Assembly (NCBI RefSeq): GCF_006345805.1
Contig: NC_043004.1
Span: forward strand, 14,818,001 to 14,882,000
Source of the DNA: Octopus sinensis
Lineage: Eukaryota
Direction: 5' to 3'
DNA: 64,000 nucleotides
In this document: piece after piece, positions 8,971 to 62,010 of the stretch
How positions within the stretch are numbered: position 1 is the first letter of the stretch
Layout of the letters: every line of letters starts with the position of its first letter
Made by a program: the position numbers and the translations under genes
The notes under the pieces: model-generated
What the model saw: only the letters and a program-made list of their open reading frames with translations
Told to the model about the DNA's origin: nothing
Databases searched by the model: none

Positions 8971-9596
8971 CATATATATACTTACATACATATATATTTA
9001 TATACGACGGGCTTCTTTCAGTTTCCGTCTACCAAATCCACTCACAAGGCTTTGGTCGGTCCGAGACTATAGTAGAAAACACTTGCCCAAGGTGCCACGC
9101 AGTGGGAATGAACCTGGAGCCATGCGGTTCGTAAGCAAGCTACTTTATTTCATGATATTTGCCATAAGGCAATACATAGAGGGGACGGACAAGGACAGAC
9201 AAACATAAAAGGGTGAAGTAGCTTTAAACGATTAAAAATTGACAATGATTATCATAGAGATGAGATTAAAAGTAAATACATTGCAAAAAGCAATGTTTAA
9301 CACGAGGGAAAGGCATCCTACACCAGAGCAGTACCTTTGCTTTCTTTCCGTGGCTCCGCTCACTTGGTGCCATTTATTCCCCACTTCCTCTCCACAAGCC
9401 TTCATCTTTTTCTGAATTTTTCACGTGACAGGTACCACTTCTCCAACCTGATCTTACTGCTGAGGTGGTAACTAAAAAAGTTGACCAACCGCTGGCCAGA
9501 TACGAAGGTACTCGTTACAATGCCTTCCAACCTCGTCTTCCATACTGTTTCTTACAAGGTAAGCAAGTTACTTACTAAACAGCCACTCCTGCGCCT
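8791..9596 (-). mobile_element. SINE family A copy split by a Tx1 insertion (body 8791-9145, head remainder 9559-9596)
   Basis: The body matches family A. The head resumes as gtaagcaagttacttactaaacagccactcctgcgcct after the insert. Confidence 0.9.
9146..9558 (-). mobile_element. Tx1-clade LINE, 5'-truncated (ORF2 C-terminus plus 3' UTR) with 15-bp TSD
   Basis: Minus strand reads ETVWKTRLEGIVTSTFVSGQRLVNFFSYHLSSKIRLEKWYLSREKFRKR*, which resembles L1/Tx1 ORF2 C-termini (W.TR...K.R.E...F..RW). TSD is gtaagcaagctactt (9131-9145) and gtaagcaagttactt (9559-9573). Confidence 0.75.
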
Positions 9597-11119: not shown

Positions 11120-11660
11120 AGCCGCATGACTTAGTGGTTAGGTATTAGGCTCACTATCGTAAGTCCCTAGGTTCGATACAGGACGGTAAGTTGTGTCCTT
11201 AAGCAAATTACTTTATTTTACGTTGCTTCAGTGCATTTAGTCGGAAAAAAAATCAGTAATGCCTTTCTTTAAAAAGACCAGTCTTTCTTTTCTACCCCAG
11301 GTACAAGGCCCGAAATTTTTGGGAAGAGAGCCAGTTGGTTATATCTACCCTAGTGCACAACTGGTATCTAATTTAGTGATCGCGAAAGGATGAAATGCAA
11401 AGTCGACCTAGGCGGAATTTGAACTCAGAACGTAGCGGTAGACGAAATACGGGTAAGGATTTCGCCCGGCGTTTTAACGATTCTGCCAACTCGCCGCCTT
11501 AAAAAAAAAAAGGCCACTCTTTGTCGCATTCTTTATCATGTTGAATCTCTCTGTGAACTACTTGCCTGTGGAGTATGCAGCCACTTGCACGTTAATATGA
11601 CGAGCAGGCCGTTTCGTCGATTCAATCAGCTCTCTCCTCACCGCCGACGGAGAGCCAGTT
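11120..11660 (+). mobile_element. SINE family C interrupted by a family B SINE
   Basis: Head catgacttagtggttagg...ggttcgatac. The body resumes at about 11508 and ends in gacggagagccagtt. Confidence 0.8.
11287..11500 (-). mobile_element. tRNA-derived SINE family B (MetaSINE-like core), full length
   Basis: Minus-strand head aaggcggcgagttggcagaatcgttaaa, B-box-like gagttcaaattcc, core gtcgactttgcatttcatcctttcg. Flanked by a degenerate TSD (11271-11286 and 11508-11522). Confidence 0.85.
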
Positions 11661-56212: not shown

Positions 56213-56326
56213 GGTCGATAAATTAAGTACCAGTTACGCACTGAGGTCGATGTAATCGACTTAATACCTATGGTTGTCTTTGTTTGTCCCCTCTATGTTT
56301 AGCCCCTTGTGGGTAATAAAGAAATA
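56213..56326 (+). mobile_element. 5'-truncated family B-type SINE with a Tx1-like tail
   Basis: ggtcgataaattaagtaccagttacgcactg core, then the tail gtttgtcccctctatgtttagccccttgtgggtaataaagaaata. Confidence 0.8.
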
Positions 56327-57328
56327 GGTATGATGTAGAGAAAAAAATTAGAAGGATAAGTTACAGAGGTTAATAATCGGAAAACCTCTGTATTTTTAGC
56401 CAACAGCGCGACAGAAATTTTCTGCGTTTAGTGGAGCGGGGTAAACTTTAAGGCTGTACCCTGTGAAAGTTAGCGTCTGTGATATGACCTGTTCGTTGTA
56501 GGATTCTAAATATAATCAACATGTATAATCTTACTGCTTCTTTTGTCTCTTCATTGATTGTATATTTTATAATCGTTTTAAAATTTGTTATATTAATTTA
56601 TCTGTCTGCATGTATTTACTTTATGCGTATTTCAGTATTATGTATACCTGTCAGGTATTTGTGTACATCATTAATATATAAGTGCATGTGAATGTATGTA
56701 GTCATGTATAAGTTCATATGTACATTTATGCATGTGTCTGTGTATGTGTCTATGTGCGTGAAGGTAGCGTATGTCTACAAATCTCCAAAGTTGAGTAACG
56801 TTTTCATGCTTGAATTTGTAAACTAAGATAAGAATAACACTGGTCAACAAATAATTTGTCCCAAGGAAAACAATACCTGTATCTTATATGTTTTTGCTCG
56901 CAGAATTCAAAAATAATGTCAAGTTAACTGTAACATCCACTGTTTCTCTGTTCTACGATATCTCTCTCAGTTCCTGTTACATGGGATAACTTTAATGTAT
57001 GTTCGAAGCGCGGAGTAGATGAAACAGGGACAACTGAAGAAGGGGAATATTCCTTGTGTTGTATGTCTTGTTTCTCTATTTTTTAAGTTGTTTGAAAAAA
57101 AGTTCGTTTGTATGTTTTTGTTTTTATGCTTTCGTTTCTCATCGTGTTCAACGGTTTTTTGATGTCCTGTACCCTTATATGCATGTATATATACATTTAT
57201 ATATAGGTATGTACATATATGTATGTATATATACATACATACATATATATATATATGTATATATATGTATATATATACATATATATATGTCTGTATATAT
57301 GTATACACACACACACACATATATATAT

Positions 57329-61387: not shown

Positions 61388-61524
61388 GTGTGTGTGTGTA
61401 TGTGTTTGTTTATGTATGGTATGGTTGTGGGTTTGTGTACAAAGAATGAACACAGAAGGCGAAGAGTTGTATACTATATATAAACGATCTTCATTTTCAG
61501 AGAATTTAAGCATGAAGCATACAT

Positions 61525-61925
61525 TCTTTTCTACTCTAGGCACAAGGCCCGAAATTTTGGGGGAGGGGAGACAGCCTATTAGATCGACCCCAGTACACAA
61601 CTGGTACTTAATCTATTAACACCGAAAGGATGTTAGGCAAAGTCGGCCACGGCGGAATTTGAACTCAGAACATAAAAGGCAGATGAAATACCTATTTCTT
61701 TCCTAGCCACAAGGGGCTAAACACAGAGAGGATAAACAAGGACAGATAAACGGATTAAGTCGATTATATCGACCCCAGTGCGTAACTGGTACTTATTTAA
61801 TCGACCCCGAAAGGAGGAAATGCAAAGTCGACCTCGGCGGAATTTGATCTCAGAACGTAGCGGCAGACGAAATACCGATAAGCATTTCACACGGCGTGCT
61901 AGCATTTCTGCCAGCTCGCCGCCTT
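61525..61925 (-). mobile_element. Composite SINE: family B host (61525-61692 plus 61877-61925) containing a Tx1-tailed SINE unit (61693-61876)
   Basis: Internal repeat ggcagatgaaatacc (61678-61692) and ggcagacgaaatacc (61862-61876). Outer degenerate TSD catgaagcatacatt (61511-61525) and cataaagcatatatt (61926-61940). Confidence 0.8.
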
Positions 61926-61939
61926 CATAAAGCATATAT

Positions 61940-62010
61940 TTCTTTCTACGCTAAGTACAAGGCCCAACATTTTTAGGGAGGGGGCCAGTCTATTACATCG
62001 ATTTCAATAT
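61940..62010 (-). mobile_element. SINE family B 3' tail fragment
   Basis: ttctttctacgctaagtacaaggcccaacatttttagggagggggccagtc. Confidence 0.65.

What the first reader, a model, noticed from the sequence alone, without database searches (positions are those of the whole stretch)
61511..61940. Tx1-tailed SINE unit inside a homologous SINE head, which rebuilds a complete A+B box promoter
Seen on the minus strand: [head with A box][ggtatttcgtctgcc][B box + core + Tx1-like tail ending gaaata][ggtatttcatctgcc][B box + core + ordinary family B tail]. The repeated 15-mer has the same length as the Tx1 TSD at 9131/9559. The whole composite has its own outer TSD-like repeat (13/15), which suggests the outer head and outer tail were one insertion. 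Inference: a SINE that hijacks Tx1 machinery to insert between the A and B boxes of its relatives. It would inherit the host A box and could build tandem arrays. Caveat: insert and host share head sequence, so the 15-mer repeat may be plain homology, or the dimer may have moved as a unit.
Basis: partly seen in the sequence, partly recalled or inferred. Interest (0 to 1): 0.75.

Follow-up and report, generated by a model that had tools for sequence, protein, structure and literature searches.

The report
SINE that lands inside its relatives
This is a young copy of a very abundant short jumping element sitting at one exact base inside an older relative; a quarter of its tail copies in the genome abut that same base and a related full-length retrotransposon sits there almost every time, so the short element likely borrows that enzyme lineage to land in its own family, likely joining by sequence homology so that a complete promoter survives.

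Summary
Observation confirmed; interpretation largely supported, with corrections. 25,122 of 99,353 copies of the inner tail are followed directly by GGTATTTCG, against 0 for the outer (B) tail (5,610 copies). A young 5.4-kb L1/Tx1-group LINE shares the tail's last 33 nt (27-30 identical) and sits at this same base in 29 of 30 copies. It is not the LINE at 9131-9573, which targets another SINE. In composites the terminal unit and outer TSD are older than the inner unit, and 0 of 105 terminal units are siblings, so there is no master dimer. Corrections: (1) the inner 15-mer is usually homology, not a TSD; 82 of 104 arrays are seamless and only 2 show a true duplication. (2) The head is a host/insert mosaic; the A-box part is host-derived in roughly 60% (wide interval). 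A variant with G-to-C at the first target base makes up 39% of heads but about 1% of SINE junctions, while the young LINE uses it in 17 of 30 copies: possible target escape. No empty orthologue could be tested. This scan noted the LINE-SINE loop before on other DNA of this genome; my paper searches did not find it.

The parts
61926..61940 (-). 5' copy of the outer target-site duplication (belongs to the older B-family host insertion)
   Evidence: 13/15 with 61511-61525; outer TSDs of this class are old, 0.147 mismatches per site
61877..61925 (-). SINE head with A box at 61903-61913; host-derived, insert-derived or mosaic (not decidable for this one copy)
   Evidence: 5 of 45 scored positions differ from the family majority; class-level mosaic estimate
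61862..61876 (-). first 15-mer; 61876 is the first base of the target motif; continues with insert-type bases, so likely homology rather than TSD
61758..61861 (-). inner (younger) unit: B box at 61839-61851 and shared core
   Evidence: 3 of 88 scored positions differ from the majority
61693..61757 (-). inner unit's LINE-related 3' tail with a predicted short hairpin, ending GAAATA
   Evidence: aligns to the 3' ends of both LINE lineages; the B tail does not (scores 42-64 against 14-16)
61678..61692 (-). second 15-mer; 61692 is the insertion base in the host SINE
61573..61677 (-). remainder of the older host body: B box at 61654-61666 and core
   Evidence: 9 of 88 scored positions differ
61525..61572 (-). 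host B-family tail
61511..61525 (-). 3' copy of the outer target-site duplication
9146..9558 (-). 5'-truncated 3' end of a sister LINE lineage, inserted with a 15-bp TSD (9131-9145, 9559-9573) in a different SINE family; tail-related, but not the lineage that targets the 61692 site

Best explanation
The inner unit is a later insertion at one fixed base of an older resident SINE, likely made by the enzyme of an L1/Tx1-group LINE lineage that targets this base and shares the inner unit's tail. Shown: the fixed joint, the shared tail, the LINE at the same base, and the age order (terminal unit and outer TSD old, inner unit young). Inferred: the LINE endonuclease nicks at the GGTAT motif between the A and B boxes and reverse transcription copies the tailed SINE RNA. 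Because that RNA begins with the same head as the host, the cDNA end would pair in register with the upstream host head, giving a seamless joint with one head instead of a duplication. The result keeps A box plus B box at normal spacing, recreates the target at the new tail/host joint, and so can be hit again to build arrays. A minority of array units come from local duplication.
For: Joint counts: 25,122 of 99,353 for this tail, 0 for the B tail. Of 44,619 tails followed by GGTAT, about 56% continue exactly as the SINE head, although exact SINE sites (102,453) are only about 2.5% of an estimated 4.1 million GGTAT sites: about 20-fold over the short motif (the GGTAT total is extrapolated from the window). 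209 end-joined cases exist with head behind a duplicated target; in 9 of 24 parsed rows both copies share non-consensus bases, so these are true TSDs of 11-19 nt (several rows are one locus). Young LINE (153 exact tails): 29 of 30 at this base in each of two partly overlapping samples; 20 of 20 full-length copies lie between a SINE head and its body, with the first target base matching on both sides; ORF1 zinc knuckle, ORF2 endonuclease + RT + zf-RVT. In 14 of these 20 young LINEs the upstream 16-mer differs from the downstream one, as expected if the 5' joint is written from the RNA by homology. Age order: last body 0.098 against first body 0.038 divergence, n=115, p=8e-18; outer TSD mismatch 0.147 per site against 0.042 for solo tailed copies. 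An insert-only head marker is in 20 of 104 composites, 0 of 56 solo B and 29 of 102 solo tailed copies. Seamless cDNA annealing to upstream target without duplication is reported for R2 (PMC11331408, passages).
Against: No biochemical or transcript evidence; no empty orthologous site seen. The young LINE is younger (mostly over 97% identical to one reference copy) than the SINE burst (about 4% divergence), ends in T where the SINE ends in A, and matches only the last 33 nt well; the upstream half of the SINE tail is closer to the sister LINE. The true mobiliser was therefore probably an older relative that I did not find (30 of 47 hits examined, none a LINE). Head divergence did not correlate per locus with either body (p=0.20 and 0.28), and head-to-tail marker linkage was too weak to test. 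Samples are the first listed places, mostly on contig C1, and hosts were selected for an exact 19-nt match. For this single copy, homology versus TSD cannot be decided.
Confidence: 0.8

Rival explanations
1. Same targeting, but the seamless joint arises afterwards: the SINE inserts full length with a TSD, and the two tandem heads (about 65-bp direct repeats) later collapse by slippage or recombination.
For: End-joined intermediates exist (209). The head+TSD unit is unstable and expands to several tandem copies at some loci (L071-L078; L475-L477). The host share of the head falls from about 0.64 at the 5' end to about 0.35 near the target, as spread crossovers would give.
Against: It needs collapse at nearly every locus (82 seamless against 2 end-joined). 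Young LINE copies already show RNA-type sequence in the upstream target copy with no tandem head (14 of 20).
Confidence: 0.25
2. One or a few master dimers (head-tailed unit-B unit) were transcribed by read-through and moved as a unit.
For: The unit majority has no run of four T, so Pol III read-through is possible; outer TSDs flank the whole.
Against: 0 of 105 terminal B units have a near sibling (nearest neighbour 0.118 against 0.107 to consensus); outer TSDs are as old as or older than those of solo B; inner and terminal units differ in age.
Confidence: 0.04
3. Composites are written in one reaction at a new site, the reverse transcriptase jumping from a B RNA to a tailed RNA.
For: One outer TSD and a fixed joint; the head is partly insert-type. 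Proposed for another genome in note e1-10278069 (unchecked AI note).
Against: It predicts equal post-insertion age of both units and a young outer TSD; the opposite is seen. It does not explain TSDs with host-private bases or near-identical LINEs inside differently mutated hosts.
Confidence: 0.04
4. Most joints are copies made at DNA level (unequal crossover, gene conversion or assembly duplication) from a few seeded arrays.
For: 20 of 149 adjacent tailed pairs share two or more rare variants (random pairs 0.4%), and 15 of 149 are within 2%.
Against: 129 of 149 pairs do not; heterologous joints (tailed unit into B or older hosts) are common (3,922 exact); first units are younger than last ones.
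Confidence: 0.1

Closest known systems
SINEU families and Tx1-Mar LINEs of crocodilians (Kojima 2015, PMC4494074; passages read)
   Same: A SINE and a Tx1-type LINE share a target inside another repeat; tandem SINE insertions at one site; target preference of 13-90%.
   Different: There the target is a Mariner DNA transposon, the head is U1/U2-derived and tandem copies sandwich a TSD. Here the target is the SINE's own promoter spacer, the tail is shared with the LINE, and most joints are seamless with a mosaic head.
Alu self-insertion hotspot at Alu position 133 (Levy, Schwartz, Ast; PMC2836564; abstract and passages)
   Same: A SINE inserts in sense at one base of its own family (15,759 cases reported).
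   Different: Alu uses the poly(A) linker and non-targeted L1; no partner LINE specific for that site is described in the passages read, and the site is not in the promoter spacer.
R2 'anneal' 5' junctions (PMC11331408; abstract and passages)
   Same: cDNA 3' end pairs with upstream target sequence and leaves no duplication; as little as 11 bp suffices.
   Different: R2 has a restriction-like endonuclease and targets 28S rDNA; here an APE-type LINE, and the homology exists because passenger and target are one family.
Tandem SINE arrays of the clam Scapharca broughtonii, TSD1-(SINE)n-TSD1 (PMC11481361; passages) and SINE-derived satellites of squamates (PMC10702118; abstract only)
   Same: Arrays with one complete head, head-truncated repeats and one outer TSD.
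   Different: The clam arrays have 3'-truncated inner units and are discussed in terms of unequal recombination; no targeting LINE is reported in the passages read.
Octopus SINEs OK, OR1, OR2 (Ohshima and Okada 1994; seen only as a citation in PMC4758252; family names OK and OR1 recalled)
   Same: tRNA-type SINEs of an octopus; this family may be one of them.

Membership tests
SINE (tRNA-type, SINE2) | short non-coding interspersed repeat in high copy with TSDs | tested here: met
   unit of about 231 nt (47+119+65); 99,353 exact tails; TSD in about 70% of 58 scored solos
SINE (tRNA-type, SINE2) | internal A and B boxes | tested here: met
   motifs at 61903-61913 and 61839-61851, 51 nt apart; box consensus recalled
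SINE (tRNA-type, SINE2) | head derived from a tRNA | tested here: inconclusive
   ARAGORN found no tRNA in the window; Rfam gave no tRNA match
SINE (tRNA-type, SINE2) | 3' tail shared with a partner LINE | tested here: met
   47 of 61 columns with the window's LINE fragment; 27 of the last 33 nt with the young targeting LINE, 30 of 33 for the GCAAT variant (L008, read by eye); short hairpin predicted in all
SINE (tRNA-type, SINE2) | transcription by RNA polymerase III | not tested
   no RNA run was laid
Tx1 clade (partner LINE) | ORF1 with zinc knuckle; ORF2 with APE endonuclease, RT and C-terminal zinc finger | tested here: met
   best solved relative human L1 ORF2p, E=2e-64. Shared with the wider L1 group
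Tx1 clade (partner LINE) | target preference for a multicopy sequence | tested here: met
   29 of 30, above the 20% criterion in PMC4494074
Tx1 clade (partner LINE) | RT phylogeny groups with Tx1L, Keno, Kibi | tested here: inconclusive
   no tree with named references; one of 120 listed homologues is labelled 'Transposon TX1 uncharacterized 149 kDa protein', 35% identity
SINEU / Tx1-Mar system | U1 or U2 snRNA-derived head | tested here: not met
   no Rfam snRNA match
SINEU / Tx1-Mar system | target is a Mariner transposon | tested here: not met
   target is the SINE family itself
Dimeric SINE family (fixed master dimer) | copies descend from a common dimer | tested here: not met
   0 of 105 terminal units have near siblings; units differ in age

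The most novel reading that the evidence does not exclude
A closed LINE-SINE loop with an arms race written in one base. The SINE took the tail of the LINE that parasitises its promoter spacer, became self-targeting and rejuvenates old relatives by overwriting their heads. A subfamily then changed the first target base from G to C and largely escaped being hit (39% of heads, about 1% of SINE joints, 7 against 209 TSD copies), and the youngest LINE has re-adapted to use the C form (17 of 30).
Probability: 0.35. Interest if true: 0.85.

Novelty: new variant of a known kind. Interest (0 to 1): 0.68.

Why it matters
It gives a concrete route by which SINE arrays and mosaic SINE subfamilies arise. 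A passenger that carries its enzyme's target lands in its own family, in a safe site, and (unlike the LINE, which puts 5.4 kb between the boxes) would leave an intact promoter. Tens of thousands of natural events record how non-LTR 5' junctions are resolved when homology is present, an open mechanistic question so far studied mainly in R2. Apparently intact, very young LINE copies make the target specificity of an APE-type endonuclease, including the G/C switch, directly testable.

Tried and rejected
Presence/absence test: contigs of four runs laid at 85% were swamped by paralogous SINE contigs; no listed piece spans the locus and the more distant organism did not cover the unique flanks. Raw reads of three runs at 97% gave 0, 2 and 0 reads. 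No verdict either way. Search for an older LINE with the exact SINE tail: 47 hits, 30 examined, none a LINE. Protein search with the sister LINE's C-terminus returned the sister lineage; the targeting LINE was found instead through a tblastn hit in L019. Head-to-tail marker linkage was too weak even in solos. A first, cruder reading that the head is almost wholly insert-derived was weakened by the age-matched estimate. RNA-written first target bases (idea of note e1-9810044) were not supported: first base matches the host in 20 of 20 LINEs and only 7 of 32 solo TSDs differ in the first five bases, without a clear trend; pairing without writing is not excluded. Rfam and ARAGORN found nothing. 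Eight paper searches showed no report of this system; Repbase, Dfam and most subscription papers were not searchable, and I opened no supplements, which could hold family consensus sequences or target notes.

Full report
Observation. The anatomy is as described, on the minus strand: outer repeat 61940-61926, head with A box, 15-mer from 61876, B box, core, a 65-nt tail ending at 61693, second 15-mer from 61692, B box, core, B tail to 61525, outer repeat 61525-61511 (13 of 15). The LINE fragment at 9146-9558 has a 15-bp duplication. The genome is 2.72 Gb. That it is an octopus-like animal is my inference from a named homologue (Argonauta) and earlier notes; I did not identify it further.

Genome-wide counts. 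The tail pattern has 99,353 exact copies. 44,619 are followed by GGTAT, 25,122 by GGTATTTCG and 1,573 by a second head position inside the A box. The B tail (5,610 copies) is never followed by GGTATTTCG. Solo copies insert at a weak motif, roughly [G/T][G/A]TAT, in 32 TSD-anchored cases. Exact SINE sites number 102,453, about 2.5% of about 4.1 million GGTAT sites extrapolated from the window frequency, yet take about 56% of the GGTAT-followed tails. That is about 20-fold beyond the short motif, partly inflated by local duplication.

Real insertions at the site. 209 places show target copy followed by a fresh head. Of 30 rows fetched, 24 were parsed; duplications are 11-19 nt and 9 share non-consensus bases on both sides (some rows belong to one locus with tandem heads). 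These are ordinary nested insertions with TSD. They are rare: among 104 arrays chosen only by their 3' joint, 82 have one head and no duplication, 2 are end-joined and 20 lack a full head.

The enzyme source. The LINE of 9146-9558 belongs to a lineage whose 3' ends lie at a fixed base of a different SINE family (26 of 27 ends that my pattern could read among 70 loci). A second lineage, about 65% identical in ORF2, was found in L019. It has 153 exact tails. 29 of 30 best-scoring copies and 29 of the first 30 listed (the sets overlap) are followed by the same SINE base as 61692. All 20 extended copies are full length (5.31-5.38 kb) between a SINE head and its body. ORF1 has a zinc knuckle; ORF2 (1,134 aa) has APE endonuclease, RT and zf-RVT, closest solved relative human L1 ORF2p. 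Tx1 clade membership was not tested by a tree. The SINE tail matches the last 33 nt of this LINE at 27 positions and the sister LINE over 47 of 61 columns, with a short hairpin predicted in all; the B tail matches neither. As the SINE burst is older than this LINE and the last base differs, the mobiliser was probably an older member of the lineage (inference).

Nested, not a dimer family. I parsed 575 non-redundant arrays and solos from the loci held at that point. In 115 composites ending in a B or other old tail, the last body is older than the first (0.098 against 0.038, p=8e-18). Outer TSDs have 0.147 mismatches per site (interval 0.115-0.184; 60 of 84 composites passed the filters), against 0.042 for solo tailed copies (58 of 102) and 0.092 for solo B (35 of 56). 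None of 105 terminal B units has a near sibling. This window's copy fits: inner 3 of 88, outer 9 of 88, TSD 2 of 15. Local duplication explains a minority: 20 of 149 adjacent tailed pairs share two or more rare variants.

The 5' joint and the promoter. Where the host has B-type bases at target positions 14 and 16, the first copy has insert-type bases in 59 of 80 and host-type in 6 of 80, so the 15-mer repeat is mostly homology. A head marker confined to tailed copies occurs in 20 of 104 composites, 0 of 56 solo B and 29 of 102 solo tailed copies. Age-matched divergence puts the host share at 0.64 (0.25-1.05) for the A-box segment and about 0.35 (0.05-0.68) for the rest (92 composites). Heads are therefore mosaics with crossovers spread along them. 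In the young LINEs the upstream 16-mer differs from the downstream one in 14 of 20 while the first base always matches the host, which points to homology-written 5' joints. This matches R2 'anneal' junctions (PMC11331408, passages). Later collapse of tandem heads remains a rival, since such tandem heads visibly expand at some loci. Per-locus correlations of head age with either body were not significant. Transcription was not tested.

A one-base asymmetry. Heads with C as first target base number 20,461 against 31,388 with G. SINE joints onto the C form number 269 against 25,122, and upstream TSD copies 7 against 209. C is first base in 1 of 32 solo targets. The young LINE is followed by C in 17 of 30. 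Escape and re-adaptation is a hypothesis, not shown.

Comparison. It works like SINEU with Tx1-Mar (PMC4494074, passages) but is not a member: head and target differ. Alu has a self-insertion hotspot without a site-specific partner (PMC2836564, abstract and passages). Similar-looking arrays in a clam were discussed as recombination products (PMC11481361, passages). An octopus repeat annotation lists L1-Tx1 families and many unclassified SINEs, with no word on nesting in the passages found (PMC13282606). Eight searches did not show this system; Repbase, Dfam, Ohshima and Okada 1994 and supplements were not seen. Earlier notes of this scan describe the same loop on other pieces of this genome; I had reached the reading before looking, and they are not independent support.

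Limits. Loci are the first listed places, mostly from one contig; B hosts were selected by an exact match and are biased young; the orthologue test failed; every enzymatic step is inferred. Verdict: real, a new variant of a known kind, interest 0.68.

Noticed in passing
window 9131-9573; L121-L140, L171-L190, L301-L319: The sister LINE lineage inserts at one base at the end of the A box of a second SINE family (26 of 27 readable ends); the tailed SINE was seen once 3 nt upstream of that base (L021).
   Followed up: partly
genome-wide: A second self-target inside the A box (1,573 exact joints) is used mostly by the GCAAT/GCAGT tail variants, whereas the main site is used mostly by GTAGT tails.
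   Followed up: partly
L082, L097, L107, L238, L247, L248: Tailed SINEs also sit in antisense at one position of the shared core, where the opposite strand reads GGTAC.
   Followed up: no
L071-L078, L475-L477: The head plus target copy (about 65 bp) has expanded into short tandem arrays in front of a SINE.
   Followed up: partly
window 61941-62001: A 5'-truncated B-family unit ends directly at the 5' copy of the outer TSD, so the same genomic site was likely used twice.
   Followed up: no
window 56213-56331 and 11333-11506: A 5'-truncated solo tailed copy followed by GGTAT in unique DNA, and a full-length B-tailed copy whose target region has tailed-family bases (mosaic).
   Followed up: no
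L120, around 1300-1525: A repeat with a different tRNA-like head ends in the same B tail: possible tail sharing among further families.
   Followed up: no
window 61697-61732 against 61769-61804: Contig depth on the tail relative to the core is about 0.05 in two runs of organism C and about 0.37 in organisms B and E; a weak hint that the tailed family expanded after these lineages split (depth is not copy number).
   Followed up: no
L353, L356: Two young LINE copies share the same rare base in the upstream target copy, suggesting it was inherited from a common donor transcript that starts in SINE sequence.
   Followed up: partly
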